DNA from: a virus
Reading direction: 5' to 3' (one strand)
Virus record (IMG/VR): IMGVR_UViG_3300045988_062257
DNA length: 64,000 nucleotides
The notes below the pieces were generated by a model. It was not told the origin of the DNA. It did no database searches and was given only the letters and a program-made list of their open reading frames with translations. The translations under genes were made by a program, and so were the position numbers. Below, one piece after another: positions 1 to 64,000 of the stretch; within the stretch, counting starts at the first letter, position 1; every line of letters begins with the position of its first letter.

Positions 1-293
1 AGGCATTTACTAATCGTCCTGTTGATAATGTAATGGCTGTTTATCTAAAGCCGAAAGTTATTTACAGAGTACAACTTGGTGCATTTAGTAAGAAAGCTAA
101 TGCTAATGCGTTTTTGGCTAAGATTAAAGGTCTTCCAGATGCAATCAATGTAGGATATAGAAACGCTTATGTCCGCAAAGTTGGCAGTTATTGGAAGGTT
201 CAAGTTGGTGCGTTCTCTGTAAAAGCTAACGCAACACGAGTTGTAAATGACCTAAAAAATAAGGGCTATAATGCCTTCATTACGACGACTTGA
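1..293 (+). CDS. SPOR-domain protein, C-terminal part (5' end outside window)
   Basis: ORF is open to the window start. Two tandem SPOR-like repeats (YRVQLGAFSKKANA ... KVQVGAFSVKANA ... KGYNAFI) typical of peptidoglycan-binding sporulation-related repeats. Confidence 0.55.
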   Translation, partial: AFTNRPVDNVMAVYLKPKVIYRVQLGAFSKKANANAFLAKIKGLPDAINVGYRNAYVRKVGSYWKVQVGAFSVKANATRVVNDLKNKGYNAFITTT

Positions 294-299
294 TTTTCT

Positions 300-340
300 A
301 AAAATATTTTGTTATAATATTTATAGAAAATAAGAGAAGA
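300..340 (+). promoter_or_regulatory. Conserved A/T-rich promoter motif (TTGTTATAATATTTATAGAAAA) upstream of tRNA cluster
   Basis: Extended -10-like TATAAT within the repeated TATAATAT..ATAGAAAGTTAAG motif that recurs before many genes. Confidence 0.4.
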
Positions 341-361
341 CGCTTGCCGCAACCACTACTT

Positions 362-438
362 ATAGTAATAGTCAAAAGGTTAAGACATTTCTCTACAAAA
401 GAAACAATTTGGGTTCGATTCCCAATTACACAAAAGGC
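362..438 (+). ncRNA. tRNA-like element; acceptor pairing not resolvable by eye
   Basis: Clear T-arm TTGGG-TTCGATT-CCCAA, a D-arm-like GTC..AAAAGGTTAA..GAC, and an anticodon-like stem TTTCT/AGAAA with loop CTACAAA (would give ACA). No 7-bp acceptor stem can be paired and no CCA is encoded. Flanked by the inverted repeat AGACGC...GCGTCTT. Confidence 0.25.
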
Positions 439-485
439 GTCTTGTTATGGTCAGCCCGTAAGACCTTAAATGGCGGGACACCTAT

Positions 486-561
486 CCGGGTGTAGCGCAG
501 TTGGTAGCGCGCCTGATTTGGGTTCAGGAGGCCCAGAGTTCGAATCTCTGCACTCGGACCA
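486..561 (+). tRNA. tRNA-Pro (anticodon TGG)
   Basis: Manual fold: acceptor CCGGGTG/CACTCGG (one G-U), D-arm GCGC-AGTTGGTA-GCGC, anticodon arm CCTGA-TTTGGGT-TCAGG, T-arm CAGAG-TTCGAAT-CTCTG, CCA encoded. Followed by hairpin ATCCCCA..TGGGGAT. Confidence 0.8.
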
Positions 562-754
562 ATCCCCATTTGGTGGGGATTATGTATCACTCCTTTCCTA
601 TGTTATATAAAGACCTATACAGCAAATCTTTCTTTACTAACAGAAGAAGATATAATGATTAGCAAGTCATTGCTGCCAGGCGTCGAGATAGCTCTTTAGA
701 ACGAAGACAGGCGAGAGCTATGGAGCCATAAGTCTAAGTTTTCGTGGGTCTTGA

Positions 755-805
755 AATGTTATAATATTTTTGTTATAATATTTATAGAAAGTTAAGAAAG
801 GAAGT
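755..805 (+). promoter_or_regulatory. Tandem promoter motif plus leader (GTTATAATATTTATAGAAAGTTAAGAAAGGAAG) with RBS
   Basis: Two TATAAT boxes followed by the conserved leader and AAGGAAG Shine-Dalgarno 8 nt before the ATG at 813. Confidence 0.45.
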
Positions 806-60479: not shown

Positions 60480-60530
60480 ATTTGCTTATCAAAAACACCA
60501 GATAAAATATAATCAGCTTGGGAGGTTAAT

Positions 60531-60962
60531 ATGTATTGTATATATTTACACCGTAATTTAATAAATGGCAAGGTGTATATCGGATAGACTAAGTTTGGCG
60601 ATAATCCAAATAAACGGTGGTAGGGTGGAGAAGGTTATAAAAGATAGATAAATTTTTATGAAGATATTTCTAAATATGGATGGGATAATTTTGACCATAT
60701 TATATTAGCTTCAAATCTAACTTTAGAAAGAGCTAATGCTTTAGAAATAAAATTCATAGAAGATTATCAGTCTACCGATCCTCAATATGGCTATAATATC
60801 ATGTCTGGTGGAGGAAATGCGCTATCCAATAATTCTAACCTCCTTTCAACTTTATACTTTAATGATGAAAAGGGAATCCTAAGAAGCAAGAAAGTAAAAA
60901 GTGTTTTAGAAGCTGAAAAGATTAGATATAATGAAAAATATCAAAGATATTTTGGAAAATAA
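60531..60962 (+). CDS. GIY-YIG homing endonuclease (free-standing, between gmk-like and nrdD); three in-frame TAG
   Basis: RBS GGGAGG. YCIYLHRNLINGKVYIG*TKFGDNPNKRW*GGEGYKR*INFYE: the canonical GIY-YIG motif is YIGQT..R...H. Confidence 0.6.
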
Positions 60963-60981
60963 ATACAAGGGAGTGTTTTGA

Positions 60982-63234
60982 TTGCTACAAGTGAAAAAGA
61001 GAAATGGTATCCTTGTACCATTTGATAAGCAAAGAATCGTTAACGCTATCAATAAGGCTTTCATCGAAGTTGATGGCACTTTATATGAAGAAGATACAGC
61101 AAATGATATTGCTGATGAAATTAAGTATAGTGTAAAGACCACAGATAAAATTATCTCTGTCGAGGAAATTCAAGACATGGTTGAAGACTTCCTCATGCGA
61201 TCTGAACGCAAAGATGTAGCTAAAACCTATATTCGTTATCGTTATAAACGAGAGGTCGCGCGTTCAGGCAGAGACGATTTTATTAAGGCTTTCTCTGAGA
61301 AGATTAACGGTACAGCCATTGAGAATTAGAACGCTAATGTTGATGAAATGTCATTCGGCGGTCGAGTTGGCGCAGGGTCTGACTTGCAAATGAAGAGATA
61401 CGCTCTAGATTACTGCGTTTCTGATATGGCTCGCTGCAATCACGAGAACAATGAAATTTATATCCATGACCTATCTGCTTATGCAGTTGGTATGCATAAC
61501 TGTCTCTCCATTCCTTTTGATGATCTACTCGCGAAAGGTTTCAATACTAGACAGACTGACGTGCGGCCCGCAGGTTCTGTGAATACTGCTTTCCAGTTGG
61601 TTGCTGTTATTTTCCAGCTTCAATCCTTACAGCAATTTGGTGGAGTAAGTGCTACCCATCTTGACTGGACTATGGTTCCTTATGTAAGAAAAAGTTTTAG
61701 AAAACATTATATTGAAGGTTTAAAGTATATTGAGAATATCTCCGATAAAGAGCTTTTTGACCATATCCCAGATACTGCTGGAATTGAAGATAATGAATAT
61801 ATGATTTATGATAAAGCATATCAATATGCTCTTGATATGACTGTTAAAGAAGTGCATCAAGCTGTAGAAGGTATGTATCATAATCTTAATACTCTTCAAT
61901 CTCGTTCTGGTAATCAATTACCATTCACTTCTATCAACTATGGTACTTGCACTCTACCAGAAGGTAGAATGGTTACAAAAGCATTGCTTGATGTTTCTAT
62001 CGAGGGACTCGGTAGACTGCATAAAACTTCTATCTTCCCTTGCGGTATCTTCCAATGCATGAAAGGTATCAATCAAAAGCCAGGCGATCCAAACTATGAT
62101 TTGTTCAGACTGGCCCTAAGATCTACTGCAACTAGACTCTATCCTAATTATGCTAATGTTGATTGGTCTGGTAATGCAGGATATGATCGAAACGATCCAC
62201 GCACATACTTTAGTACGATGGGTTGTAGAACCGCGAATGGTTGGGATATAAATCACGATGATGGAGTTAACGGTCAAACAAAAGATGGACGCGGCAATAT
62301 TTGTCCTGTAACTATTATCATGCCTACTCTTGCTATGGAGTGTAAGATTAACTTTGATGCAGATGTAAAAGGCCATCATTCTTTTGATGATAGACAAATT
62401 CTAATTGACAGATTCCTCTATAAACTTGACCAGAAGATCCATGAAGCAAAAGATATGCTAATTGAACGTTTTGATTATATCTGCTCCCAACCTGCGGCAT
62501 CCGCCAAATTCATGTATGAGAACGGCTTAATGATAGGCTATGACGGTAAGAATACTCGTAGTGCTCTTAAGCATGGTACTCTTGCTCTTGGTCAATTGGG
62601 TCTAGCTGAAACTCTGCAAATCCTTATTGGTCAAGATCATACTACTCCAGAAGGTATGAAGTTAGCAAAGCAGATTGAGCAGCTTTTTAAAGATAGATGC
62701 GCAGAGTTTAAGGAGCAATACAGCTTAAACTTTGGTGTATATTATACTCCTGCTGAGAATCTTTGCTACACAGCTATGACAAAGTTCAAAGAGAAGTACG
62801 GAGAAATTCCTAATGTAAGTGATAGAGATTATTTCACTAACTCTATTCATGTCCCTGTATGGAAAGAAATGTCTCCATTTGATAAGATTGACATTGAGAG
62901 TCAATTAACTGGATATTCTTCCGCTGGGTGTATCACTTATGTCGAACTTGATAGTGGCGTCAAGAATAATATTGATGCTTTAGAAACTCTAGTGCATTAC
63001 GCCATGGAACATGATATTCCCTACTTTGCTATCAATGTTCCTAATGATACTTGTCTTGACTGTGGTTTCATGGACGAATTTAACGATCATTGTCCTGTTT
63101 GCGGAAGCCATCATATCCAACAACTTAGACGAGTAACCGGCTATCTAACTGGTAACTATACAACCGCATTTAATGCAGGTAAAATTGCAGAAACAAATGA
63201 TAGAGTAAAACACGCTGGTCGATTGGAGGAATGA
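60982..63234 (+). CDS. nrdD: Anaerobic ribonucleoside-triphosphate reductase (NrdD) with N-terminal ATP-cone; TAG joins cone and catalytic body
   Basis: ATP-cone VKKRNGILVPFDKQRI. ORFs 60982-61329 and 61348-63234 are in the same frame (offset 366 nt) across TAG 61327-61329. C-terminal zinc site CLDCG...CPVCG and glycyl-radical motif RVTGYL. Confidence 0.65.
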
Positions 63235-63237
63235 CCT

Positions 63238-63720
63238 ATTCGTTACGCAGGAATTATTTATAATGACTTTTCTTCAGCACCTGGTGTGTGTCTATCATTC
63301 TTTACTCAGGGGTGCCCCTTCCATTGTGAGGGGTGCCACAATCCTGAGACTTGGGATTTTGATGGCGGAAGAGAGTTTACACAAGATACTTTGCAATCAA
63401 TCATTACTGGATTGAAAGCTAATGGAATACATAGAAATCTATGTATCATGGGTGGAGAACCTTTATGCCAAGATAATTCATTCCTTACTCGCTTGATTGT
63501 AACGGCAGTAAAGAAAGAGCTACCGGATACTAAAATCTACATTTGGACAGGTAATAAATATGAAGAACTTCTTCATTCTTCTGATACCAATATGCGGGAA
63601 ATTCTTAAGACTGCGGATGTCTTGATTGATGGCCCCTATATTCAAGCTGAACGAGATATTACCTTGCCTATGCGTGGTAGCCGCAATCAGCGCATCATTA
63701 ACTTACATGATGCTAATTAA
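63238..63720 (+). CDS. nrdG: Anaerobic RNR activating enzyme (NrdG); non-ATG start unresolved
   Basis: Conserved N-terminal IRYAGIIYNDFSSAPGV and radical-SAM CxxxCxxC (GCPFHCEGCHN) lie upstream of the first in-frame ATG/GTG (ORF table start 63286). The frame opens right after the nrdD TGA. Confidence 0.5.
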   Translation: MRYAGIIYNDFSSAPGVCLSFFTQGCPFHCEGCHNPETWDFDGGREFTQDTLQSIITGLKANGIHRNLCIMGGEPLCQDNSFLTRLIVTAVKKELPDTKIYIWTGNKYEELLHSSDTNMREILKTADVLIDGPYIQAERDITLPMRGSRNQRIINLHDAN

Positions 63721-63736
63721 TTCCATTTTTGGTGGC

Positions 63737-64000
63737 ATGATGATTGCCATAGCTAGTTATATTTATCTTCAAGTCGGCGGAATAGTAGGAGCCTTTCTCT
63801 TTTCTATAGGGCTTCTAACCATTCTTAATATGAACTTTAAGCTATATACTGGTGCAATAGGATTTATACATCTAAATCCCGCAGATATGCAAAACATTAC
63901 TACGATTCTTACTGGTAATTTAATCGGAGTATGCTTACTCTTGTTCTTCCCGCACTCTGCGGCCATTCCTTTGGTCGCTACCAAGCTAGCTCTTCCACTT
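63737..64000 (+). CDS. Membrane protein, 5' part (runs off the window end)
   Basis: Open + strand frame from ATG 63737 to the window end encodes hydrophobic helices. Absent from the ORF table because no stop is reached. Preferred over antisense ORF 63769-63984. Confidence 0.35.
   Translation, partial: MMIAIASYIYLQVGGIVGAFLFSIGLLTILNMNFKLYTGAIGFIHLNPADMQNITTILTGNLIGVCLLLFFPHSAAIPLVATKLALPL

What the first reader, a model, noticed from the sequence alone, without database searches (positions are those of the whole stretch)
1..64000. TAG (amber) is used as a sense codon, most plausibly Gln
I count about 40 in-frame TAG codons in at least 14 genes, and reading through them reconnects neighbouring ORFs into full-length conserved proteins. 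Three lines of evidence for Gln. First, the HNH endonuclease at 2477-3004 has SHFTG-TAG-RW exactly where that family has the invariant SHFTGQ. Second, the GIY-YIG genes at 60531 and 43481 give VYIG-TAG-T and AYIG-TAG-S, restoring the canonical YIGQT / YIGQS motif. Third, Gln-rich coiled-coil heptads in 43481-44398 only make sense with Q. Gene joins: the DHH gene (51981-53690) has a perfect SD and ATG followed by TAG at codon 4, and a second TAG immediately after its DHH motif. The ATP-cone and catalytic body of NrdD, the two domains of the endolysin, and a lipoprotein lysozyme are each joined through TAG. TAA and TGA behave as real stops throughout: they end genes just before RBS-spaced next starts.
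Basis: partly seen in the sequence, partly recalled or inferred. Interest (0 to 1): 0.92.

Follow-up and report, generated by a model that had tools for sequence, protein, structure and literature searches.

The report
Gut phage reads TAG as glutamine
This 64-kb piece of a very common ~148-kb human-gut phage really does use the stop codon TAG as a glutamine codon, helped by its own amber-suppressor tRNA, but this kind of phage "code 15" recoding has been well documented since 2014, so it is a correct, not a new, discovery.

Summary
Public gene calls mapped on the window give 73 genes. None ends in TAG (62 TAA, 11 TGA), and 40 in-frame TAGs lie in 15 genes. Pfam domains and homologue alignments run straight across the TAGs.

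Gln is the best-supported meaning. At conserved columns, standard-code relatives carry CAA/CAG where this phage has TAG. In the HNH motif SHFTG-x-RW, 118 of 120 homologues have Q. Among close relatives, TAG exchanges mostly with CAA/CAG. A profile log-odds over 11 sites gives Q 13.6 bits against 6.1 for the runner-up, K.

The same scaffold carries a tRNA with a CUA anticodon about 4 kb upstream of the window.

TAG use is strongly skewed. It makes up 40% of Gln codons in homing endonucleases and 15% in lysis/cell-wall genes, but about 1% in other annotated genes, mostly replication and nucleotide metabolism (Fisher p = 4e-17). This is the pattern published for recoded gut phages.

Caveats:
- The broad Pfam profiles cannot separate Q from K or S.
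- "YIGQ" is a subfamily motif, not the family-wide one.
- The suppressor tRNA has an unusual extra arm.

Verdict: a correct finding and a new member of a known kind.

The parts
2477..3004 (+). HNH endonuclease gene, TAG at 2639 (SHFTG-x-RW)
   Evidence: Pfam HNH. 118 of 120 homologues have Q at the aligned column, including JGI/NCBI-sourced proteins.
3332..3733 (+). Second HNH endonuclease gene, TAGs at 3476 and 3503
   Evidence: PHROG 2255 HNH endonuclease aligns over residues 1-125, across both TAGs. Gene call.
5718..6451 (+). Two genes of unknown function (5718-5933 with TAGs at 5784 and 5853; 5939-6451 with TAG at 6185)
   Evidence: Public gene calls read through the TAGs. The TAGs are conserved in 3 relatives. 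No family hit.
19629..20153 (+). Gene for a hydrophobic, probably membrane protein, TAG at 19791
   Evidence: No PHROG hit.
29802..30506 (+). GIY-YIG / I-HmuI-NUMOD homing endonuclease gene, TAGs at 29865, 29901 and 30078
   Evidence: Pfam GIY-YIG 6-94 and NUMOD-like domain..
30600..31199 (+). Phosphoesterase gene, TAG at 31071, followed by a Cys-rich tail
   Evidence: PHROG 547 phosphoesterase. TAG conserved in 7 relatives.
35058..36389 (+). Endolysin gene (Phage_lysozyme2 + Amidase_2 + SLH), TAGs at 35103, 35250, 35337 and 35736
   Evidence: Pfam domains span all four TAGs. Codon alignment with 68 relatives. At 35103, TAG-free relatives have Q 28 / E 1.
36389..36712 (+). Small gene with two hydrophobic segments, overlapping the endolysin stop; holin-like by inference. 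TAGs at 36425 and 36677
   Evidence: Sequence. Relatives have TAG where the window has CAA at 36446 and 36680. No family hit.
42944..43144 (+). Small gene of unknown function, TAG at 43070
43481..44398 (+). Gene for a transmembrane + coiled-coil + GIY-YIG protein. 13 TAGs, half of its 26 Gln codons
   Evidence: Pfam GIY-YIG 213-293. PHROG homing endonuclease families. TAG<->CAA/CAG exchanges at 10 sites in relatives.
51981..53729 (+). DHH/DHHA1/RecJ_OB (RecJ-like) nuclease gene, TAGs at 51990 (codon 4), 52440 (after DHH) and 53688
   Evidence: Pfam. SD + ATG. 117 full-length homologues conserve sequence on both sides of each TAG.
53767..54531 (+). Gene for a signal-peptide/lipobox protein with a Phage_lysozyme2 domain, TAGs at 53980 and 54490
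   Evidence: Pfam match 119-252 of 254 spans TAG 54490. Gene call.
60531..60962 (+). Free-standing GIY-YIG endonuclease gene, TAGs at 60585, 60621 and 60645
   Evidence: Pfam GIY-YIG 1-81. Homologue columns: Q 16/22, Q 8/22, N 7 / Q 6.
60982..63234 (+). NrdD anaerobic ribonucleotide reductase gene (ATP-cone + catalytic domain), TAG at 61327
   Evidence: Pfam ATP-cone 3-91 and NRDD 117-744. PDB 8p23 aligns over residues 4-253 across the TAG, with E or A in homologues. The public call starts at 61177.
363..9585 (+). Downstream part of the phage tRNA array: 12 tRNAs, including Gln-UUG at 1356-1431 and Gln-CUG at 3744-3818. The amber suppressor tRNA(CUA) of the same array lies about 4.0 kb upstream of window position 1 (L003 4182-4272)
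   Evidence: ARAGORN and Rfam on the window. L003 is 99.99% identical to the window over 12.2 kb and holds 33 tRNA genes including the CUA tRNA, plus a tmRNA.

Best explanation
The window is the replication and nucleotide-metabolism half of a ~148-kb SPbeta/EF1-like siphophage-type genome that is very common in human gut metagenomes. It uses genetic code 15: TAG is a glutamine codon, and TAA and TGA are the only terminators.

Shown:
- TAG never ends a gene and occurs in frame 40 times in 15 genes.
- Homology continues across the TAGs.
- TAG aligns with, and exchanges with, CAA/CAG in relatives.
- The same genome encodes a tRNA with a CUA anticodon in its 33-tRNA array, about 4 kb upstream of the window.
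- TAG use is concentrated in homing-endonuclease and lysis/cell-wall genes and is nearly absent from core replication genes.

Inferred:
- The 91-nt suppressor tRNA is charged with Gln by a host enzyme (GlnRS, or GluRS followed by GatCAB). Its U35, G73 and unpaired U1.U72 resemble tRNA-Gln identity features.
- It competes with host release factor 1 at UAG.
- TAG-bearing genes would then yield full-length protein only once the suppressor has accumulated. This would keep lysis proteins and endonucleases off early in infection, as in the published model for recoded gut phages.
For: - Gene structure: 73 genes, 0 TAG stops, 40 in-frame TAGs.
- Domains and alignments span the TAGs.
- Endolysin: at conserved columns, TAG-free relatives have Q 28/E 1, Q 37, Q 63, Q 62 and Q 55 where recoded relatives have TAG. 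TAA/TGA appeared in only three of 80 endolysin alignments, once each.
- Close relatives: 21 of 36 distinct alternatives to TAG are CAA or CAG, although CAA needs two base changes.
- HNH motif: Q in 118 of 120 homologues.
- hmmbuild log-odds over 11 window sites: Q 13.6 bits, K 6.1, N 4.8, E 4.3.
- Suppressor tRNA: ARAGORN anticodon cta, Rfam tRNA 54.5 bits, cloverleaf fold. All 15 suppressor-type tRNAs in the 184 loci held at that point are CUA; none is UCA or UUA.
- TAG skew: 0.40 of Gln codons in homing endonucleases, 0.15 in lysis genes, 0.013 in other annotated genes; Fisher p = 4e-17. Just downstream of the window a RuvC-like resolvase has 9 TAGs.
- Literature: the same pattern and model are in bioRxiv 10.1101/2021.08.26.457843. 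Related code-15 phages are in PMC10607447. The abstract of PMC9523058 reports metaproteomic evidence for code 15 in crAss-like phages.
Against: - There is no protein-level evidence for this phage.
- Broad Pfam profiles do not single out Q. Summed bits for 16 sites were Q 296.0, K 295.9, S 295.6.
- DHH and NrdD sites sit in columns dominated by E, K or D.
- A few TAGs in relatives align with invariant W or E, or exchange with Ser codons.
- The suppressor tRNA has a 20-nt variable region with a 4-bp stem. That is a feature of Ser/Leu/Tyr tRNAs, not of any known tRNA-Gln, so its charging is uncertain.
- Some database homologues may carry a Q that was assumed by a code-15 gene caller, which makes part of the HNH and GIY-YIG counts circular.
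- The timing model is untested here: the structural module was barely sampled, and the suppressor tRNA sits among early-looking genes.
- No release factor or aminoacyl-tRNA synthetase gene was seen among the genes called on about 90 kb.
Confidence: 0.88

Rival explanations
1. TAG is a sense codon but is decoded, wholly or partly, as an amino acid other than Gln. Ser is suggested by the extra arm of the suppressor tRNA. Glu would result if the tRNA were charged by a non-discriminating GluRS and not transamidated. Lys is also possible.
For: - The Pfam substitution test ties Q, K and S.
- DHH and NrdD columns favour E, K or D.
- The tRNA has a class-II-like extra arm and G73.
- TAG exchanges with Ser codons at 3 sites and with GAA/GAG at 2 sites in relatives.
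Against: - At nearly invariant columns the partner residue is Q: endolysin columns 40, 146, 514 and 572, and the HNH motif.
- Log-odds are S 1.1, E 4.3 and K 6.1 bits against Q 13.6.
- TAG<->CAA, a two-step change, is the commonest exchange.
Confidence: 0.07
2. The TAGs are real stops. The affected genes would be decaying pseudogenes, as is common for homing endonucleases, or split genes, and the CUA tRNA would be incidental.
For: 22 of the 40 TAGs are in homing-endonuclease genes, a class that often decays. One TAG in a relative aligns with an invariant Trp, as a nonsense mutation would.
Against: - Only TAG interrupts genes here, never TAA or TGA.
- No gene ends in TAG.
- Interrupted genes include the endolysin, NrdD and the RecJ-like nuclease.
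- TAG positions and the downstream protein sequence are conserved across relatives and distant homologues.
- A suppressor tRNA is present.
Confidence: 0.02
3. The host itself uses a TAG-sense code, and the phage merely mirrors it. There would then be no phage-driven code switch and no timing role.
For: The host is unknown. Phages of code-25 bacteria do mirror their hosts' code.
Against: - The core replication genes avoid TAG almost completely while other genes are rich in it. That is unexpected if TAG were an ordinary codon in the host.
- The phage carries its own CUA tRNA.
- The closest cultured relatives infect standard-code Bacillota: Enterococcus, Bacillus and Enterocloster.
- To my knowledge, no bacterium with TAG = Gln is known.
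Confidence: 0.03

Closest known systems
Code-15 (TAG to Gln) recoded gut phages: crAss-like, Lak and other clades (Ivanova et al. 2014, from memory; Borges et al., bioRxiv 10.1101/2021.08.26.457843; Peters et al., PMC9523058)
   Same: In-frame TAG aligning with Gln. A phage-encoded suppressor tRNA(CUA). Replication genes kept in standard code. Lysis genes preferentially recoded. The published Agate clade even has a recoded homing endonuclease, though there the codon is TGA.
   Different: A different lineage: an SPbeta/EF1-like genome with PolIII alpha, YorF/YorH and gyrase, probably infecting Bacillota. No release-factor or aminoacyl-tRNA synthetase 'code-change module' is seen among the genes called on about 90 kb. 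The TAG share is highest in homing endonucleases.
phAss-1 / proposed Phassvirus and allied 'Caudoviricetes code 15 clade' genomes (Babkin et al. 2023, PMC10607447; GenBank OQ749652)
   Same: Human gut origin. 130-150 kb genomes with about 30-36 tRNAs. TAG to Gln. The same distant cultured relatives (Enterococcus phage EF1, Enterocloster phage, SPbeta). NrdD, NAMPT and nicotinamidase-type gene content. An 88-nt Sup-CTA tRNA (91 nt with its encoded CCA) that is 81% identical to the one here, including the extra arm.
   Different: No nucleotide similarity outside two tRNAs, so not the same genus. One suppressor tRNA was found here, against two or three there. The rest of this genome was not examined.
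E. coli amber suppressors that insert Gln (supE tRNA-Gln CUA; su7 tRNA-Trp CUA charged by GlnRS); textbook knowledge, from memory
   Same: A CUA anticodon with U35, G73 and a weak first acceptor pair. The anticodon loop CUCUAAA equals the phage tRNA-Trp loop with C35 changed to U.
   Different: Those are single-mutation laboratory suppressors of normal length. This is a dedicated phage gene with a 20-nt variable arm, and its charging enzyme is untested.

Membership tests
Code-15 (TAG to Gln) recoded bacteriophage | In-frame TAG inside conserved genes, with homology continuing on both sides | tested here: met
   Pfam, PHROG, PDB and homologue alignments span the TAGs in 9 genes.
Code-15 (TAG to Gln) recoded bacteriophage | TAG not used as a terminator; TAA and TGA only | tested here: met
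   0 of 73 called genes end in TAG; 62 end in TAA and 11 in TGA.
Code-15 (TAG to Gln) recoded bacteriophage | TAG positions correspond to Gln in standard-code homologues | tested here: met
   Endolysin codon alignment. HNH 118/120 Q. Log-odds Q 13.6 bits against 6.1 for the next best. TAG<->CAA/CAG exchange. The Pfam-level test was indecisive between Q, K and S.
Code-15 (TAG to Gln) recoded bacteriophage | Phage-encoded suppressor tRNA with a CUA anticodon | tested here: met
   L003 4182-4272, on the same scaffold as the window and about 4 kb upstream. Rfam 54.5 bits. It is not inside the window.
Code-15 (TAG to Gln) recoded bacteriophage | Recoded codons biased to late/lysis genes, with the replication module in standard code | tested here: met
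   TAG share of Gln codons is 0.15 in lysis genes and 0.40 in homing endonucleases, against 0.013 in other annotated genes; p = 4e-17. The structural module was only glimpsed: a tail-fibre-like ORF with 4 TAGs.
Code-15 (TAG to Gln) recoded bacteriophage | Gln found at TAG positions in the proteins | not testable with these tools
   This needs metaproteomics, as done for crAss-like phages (PMC9523058).
Code-15 (TAG to Gln) recoded bacteriophage | Accessory code-change genes (release factor 2, GlnRS); optional, present in only some clades | tested here: inconclusive
   No release-factor or aaRS Pfam family is listed for any gene called on about 90 kb. About 40% of the genome was not seen.
Phassvirus (phAss-1 genus) | Genus-level nucleotide similarity and synteny with phAss-1 | tested here: not met
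   blastn of the window against OQ749652 matches only two tRNA genes. PolIII alpha is under 60% identical to every GenBank phage.
Pyrrolysine decoding of TAG | A tRNA-Pyl architecture and pylS/pylBCD genes | tested here: not met
   ARAGORN's label 'tRNA-Pyl' only reflects the CUA anticodon. The tRNA has a normal 8-nt D-loop, a 5-bp anticodon stem and a long extra arm. No Pyl family is listed in the gene annotation. The aligned residues are Q.

The most novel reading that the evidence does not exclude
The amber suppressor here is a 91-nt tRNA with a class-II-like extra arm. It is conserved, with compensatory acceptor-stem changes, in the otherwise unalignable phAss-1 genome. If this tRNA is really charged with Gln, it would be a tRNA-Gln architecture not known in cells, perhaps evolved to evade or exploit host synthetases. 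If it is charged partly with Ser, TAG would be ambiguous. The neighbouring phage tmRNA and ArfA-like peptide (ArfA works through RF2) could form a ribosome-rescue kit that copes with read-through of host TAG stops.
Probability: 0.15. Interest if true: 0.55.

Novelty: new member of a known kind. Interest (0 to 1): 0.3.

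Why it matters
In practice, this phage lineage is very abundant. Its ThyA protein was counted on the maximum 1000 contigs and matches a GenBank 'MAG TPA Caudoviricetes sp.' protein. With the standard code, its endolysin, NrdD, RecJ-like nuclease and five endonucleases are all mis-annotated as fragments. 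Biologically, it adds a Bacillota-type SPbeta-like lineage to the phages that keep replication genes in standard code and put recoded stops in lysis genes and selfish endonucleases. That strengthens the published idea that recoding acts as a timing and safety switch. It does not open a new question.

Tried and rejected
- **Megablast against GenBank phages:** 7 kb of the window gave no match. Distant blastn found only short patches in SPbeta, Enterococcus and Enterocloster phages. BK015962, a candidate relative from PMC10607447, is not in the collection.
- **Raw ORF-length comparison under alternative stop sets:** not discriminating.
- **Pfam bit-score substitution test:** 16 TAG sites, 10 candidate residues. 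It excluded W, Y, G and L by 10-25 bits but could not separate Q, K and S. I did not run the other ten residues.
- **Representative search with X at TAG sites:** I used the TAG-free fragment 52443-53687 instead and aligned the hits to the full protein.
- **Origin of the suppressor tRNA:** its core is about equally similar to the phage Trp, Asn and Gln tRNAs, so the origin is unresolved.
- **Reaching the structural module:** two walking steps showed TAG-poor small genes upstream, and a TAG-rich resolvase and a tail-fibre-like ORF downstream. I did not reach the terminase, portal or capsid genes.
- **Group I introns around the endonucleases:** Rfam found only tRNAs in the window.
- **Pyrrolysine and artefact readings:** rejected, as explained above.

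Full report
**What the window is.** Nearly all genes are on the + strand and GC is about 40%. A tRNA array occupies 363-9585. It is followed by an SPbeta-like replication and nucleotide-metabolism module:
- DNA replication and repair: PolIII alpha, GyrA/B, DnaB, YorF/YorH, DNA ligase, RNA ligase.
- Nucleotide and cofactor metabolism: NAMPT, NAD synthase, Thg1, ThyA, DHFR, PhoH, NrdD/NrdG.

No structural genes lie in the window. A protein of the window recovers an ENA human-gut scaffold of 148,364 bp (L003) that is 99.99% identical to the window over 12.2 kb. Many near-identical 140-149 kb contigs exist. The ThyA protein equals GenBank DAG20554.1, 'MAG TPA Caudoviricetes sp.', and was counted on the maximum of 1000 contigs. 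The closest cultured phages are Enterococcus phages VRE9/EF1 and Bacillus SPbeta, at about 40% identity in PolIII alpha.

**Checking the observation.** Public gene calls mapped onto the window give intact ORFs for 73 genes; GyrB was set by hand because the source contig differs there. Stops are TAA 62, TGA 11, TAG 0. Forty TAGs lie in frame in 15 genes. Within genes, TAG occurs 40 times in frame 0 and 238 and 236 times in the other two frames, so it is still a rare codon.

Homology gives evidence that does not depend on the gene calls:
- Pfam domains span the TAGs in the endolysin, the DHH gene, three GIY-YIG genes and the second lysozyme.
- An HNH PHROG spans both TAGs of 3332-3733.
- PDB NrdD chains align continuously across the TAG at 61327.
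- 117 full-length RecJ-like homologues conserve M-x-Y-x-L-I around codon 4 and I-x-D-Y-E-I after the last TAG of the DHH gene.
- In 80 relatives of the endolysin gene, in-frame TAGs number 0-10. TAA or TGA appears in only three alignments, once each.

**Which amino acid.**
1. Codon-level alignment of the endolysin with 68 IMG/VR relatives. At conserved columns, TAG in recoded genomes faces CAA/CAG in TAG-free ones: Q 28/E 1, Q 37, Q 63, Q 62, Q 55. Single exceptions sit at an invariant W column and two E columns.
2. Among close relatives (over 70% nucleotide identity), TAG alternates with CAA or CAG in 21 of 36 distinct site-level alternatives. CAA needs two substitutions, so this is synonymous-like exchange, not mutational proximity.
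3. In SHFTG-x-RW, 118 of 120 homologues have Q, including proteins from JGI/NCBI sources that I take to be called with the standard code.
4. Profile emissions built from homologue alignments give a summed log-odds over 11 window sites of Q 13.6 bits, K 6.1, N 4.8, E 4.3 and S 1.1.

Weaker points:
- Replacing the 16 domain-embedded TAGs by ten candidate residues and rescoring with Pfam gave Q 296.0, K 295.9 and S 295.6 bits. W, Y, G and L were 10-25 bits lower. Family-wide profiles therefore do not decide, and the Pfam GIY-YIG model prefers S or K after YIG.
- YIGQ is a subfamily feature.
- The DHH and NrdD sites lie in E/K/D-rich columns.
- Some database homologues come from gene callers that already read TAG as Q. 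This can inflate the Q counts for HNH and GIY-YIG, but not for the endolysin, where I read the codons themselves.

**The suppressor tRNA.** The window has no CUA tRNA. The same scaffold has one about 4.0 kb upstream (L003 4182-4272), within an array of 33 tRNA genes plus a tmRNA. It is also present in relatives L001 and L100, and it scores 54.5 bits with Rfam tRNA.

- It is 91 nt long and folds as a cloverleaf.
- It has a U1.U72 mismatch, G73, anticodon loop CUCUAAA and a 20-nt variable region with a 4-bp stem.
- U35, G73 and a weak first acceptor pair are the classical GlnRS identity features (from memory). The phage's own tRNA-Gln genes and the normal-length Sup-CUA tRNAs of relatives share G73 and a weak or mismatched 1:72 pair.
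- The extra arm is unexpected for a Gln tRNA. It is conserved in the longest Sup-CTA of phAss-1 (88 nt as annotated, 91 nt with CCA), which is 81% identical and has compensatory acceptor-stem changes.
- All 15 suppressor-type tRNAs in the 184 loci held at that point are CUA.
- Charging with Gln is inferred from the alignments, not shown.

**Distribution of TAG and the likely mechanism.**

| Gene class | Genes | TAGs | TAG share of Gln codons |
|---|---|---|---|
| Homing endonucleases | 5 | 22 | 0.40 |
| Lysis/cell-wall (endolysin, holin-like ORF, lipoprotein lysozyme) | 3 | 8 | 0.15 |
| Other annotated genes | 32 | 5 | 0.013 |
| Unknown function | 33 | 5 | 0.037 |

The first two classes against the other two give Fisher p = 4e-17. 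PolIII alpha, gyrase, DnaB, ligase and NAMPT have no TAG. TAG-bearing genes also have lower GC3 (0.30 against 0.37, p = 2e-4) and prefer A-ending codons (CAA/CAG odds ratio 6.1). They are therefore a distinct codon-usage class. Just beyond the window, a RuvC-like resolvase has 9 TAGs in 159 codons and a tail-fibre-like ORF has 4.

This matches the published picture. In that picture, replication genes stay in standard code, lysis genes and even an intron endonuclease are preferentially recoded, and recoding is proposed to delay their translation until the suppressor tRNA is available (10.1101/2021.08.26.457843). For this phage the timing step is inference.

**Comparison with what is known.**
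- TAG-to-Gln recoding in gut phages is established bioinformatically. Metaproteomic evidence exists for crAss-like phages (PMC9523058 abstract).
- A group of 130-150 kb human-gut phages related to EF1/SPbeta with Sup-CTA tRNAs has been described (phAss-1, PMC10607447). NCBI taxonomy has a 'Caudoviricetes code 15 clade'.
- The window shares no nucleotide similarity with phAss-1 beyond two tRNAs. It is therefore a different genus-level lineage of the same broad kind.
- The public protein collection already translates these genes through TAG.

**Verdict.** The observation and the interpretation are right. The phenomenon is known, so interest is modest. The residual curiosities are the extra-arm suppressor tRNA, the phage tmRNA with an ArfA-like peptide, and the very high TAG load of the endonucleases.

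Noticed in passing
window 63235-63720 (NrdG), start region 63224-63240: The NrdG reading frame follows the NrdD TGA in the same frame. It has no ATG, GTG or TTG before its conserved N-terminus. ATT at 63238 sits exactly where over 20 relatives have ATG (M-R/K-Y-A-G-I), with GGAGG 9 nt upstream. This is probably an ATT start codon. The public gene call is truncated to 90 aa (63448-63720) and loses the CxxxCxxC radical-SAM motif.
   Followed up: yes
window 4166-4239: A tRNA-like gene (Rfam 36 bits) with an 8-nt anticodon loop GUUAAAAG; ARAGORN reads a 4-base anticodon UAAA. It is 100% conserved in two relatives whose flanks are only 88-92% identical. It could be a quadruplet or frameshift-type decoder, or a Leu-UAA variant.
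   Followed up: partly
window 9499-9585 and 363-432: tRNA-Cys(GCA) is 87 nt long, with a long extra arm and U73. That is unusual for tRNA-Cys. A second odd 70-nt tRNA has anticodon ACA and no encoded CCA.
   Followed up: no
L003 4182-4272 (about 4.0 kb upstream of window position 1): The amber suppressor tRNA(CUA) is 91 nt long, with a 20-nt variable region forming a 4-bp stem, a U1.U72 mismatch and G73. The longest Sup-CTA of phAss-1 is 81% identical, including the extra arm.
   Followed up: partly
L003 6404-6556 and 6955-7298 (1.6-0.9 kb upstream of window position 1): The phage encodes a tmRNA (Rfam 100.8 bits, tag DNNYFDSHMAA). Next to it is a 50-aa ORF carrying the ArfA motif KKGKGSYsRKqKH (Pfam ArfA 24.6 bits, cut-off 25.5; aligns with E. 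coli ArfA 5mdw). These ribosome-rescue factors may deal with read-through of TAG-terminated host genes.
   Followed up: partly
L092 19659-20138 (about 1.7 kb downstream of the window end): A RuvC-like Holliday-junction resolvase gene has 9 TAGs in 159 codons, the densest seen. After it the gene orientation flips to the minus strand.
   Followed up: partly
window-wide; TAG genes listed in parts: TAG-bearing genes form a separate codon-usage class. Their GC3 is 0.30 against 0.37. They prefer CAA over CAG (111:30, against 170:280 in TAG-free genes), and likewise AAA and GAA. This fits a different expression class, or acquisition from lower-GC recoded phages.
   Followed up: partly
window 1-293 (gene continues upstream, L003 7618-8478): This is the 3' end of a NAGPA + SPOR (peptidoglycan-binding) protein gene. 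The upstream part contains an in-frame stop codon, which I did not read but which is presumably TAG because the public call reads through it. It would be a further cell-wall-related recoded gene.
   Followed up: no
window 43481-44398: A GIY-YIG domain is fused to an N-terminal transmembrane helix and about 180 residues of coiled coil. That is an unusual architecture for a homing endonuclease, and half of its Gln codons are TAG.
   Followed up: no
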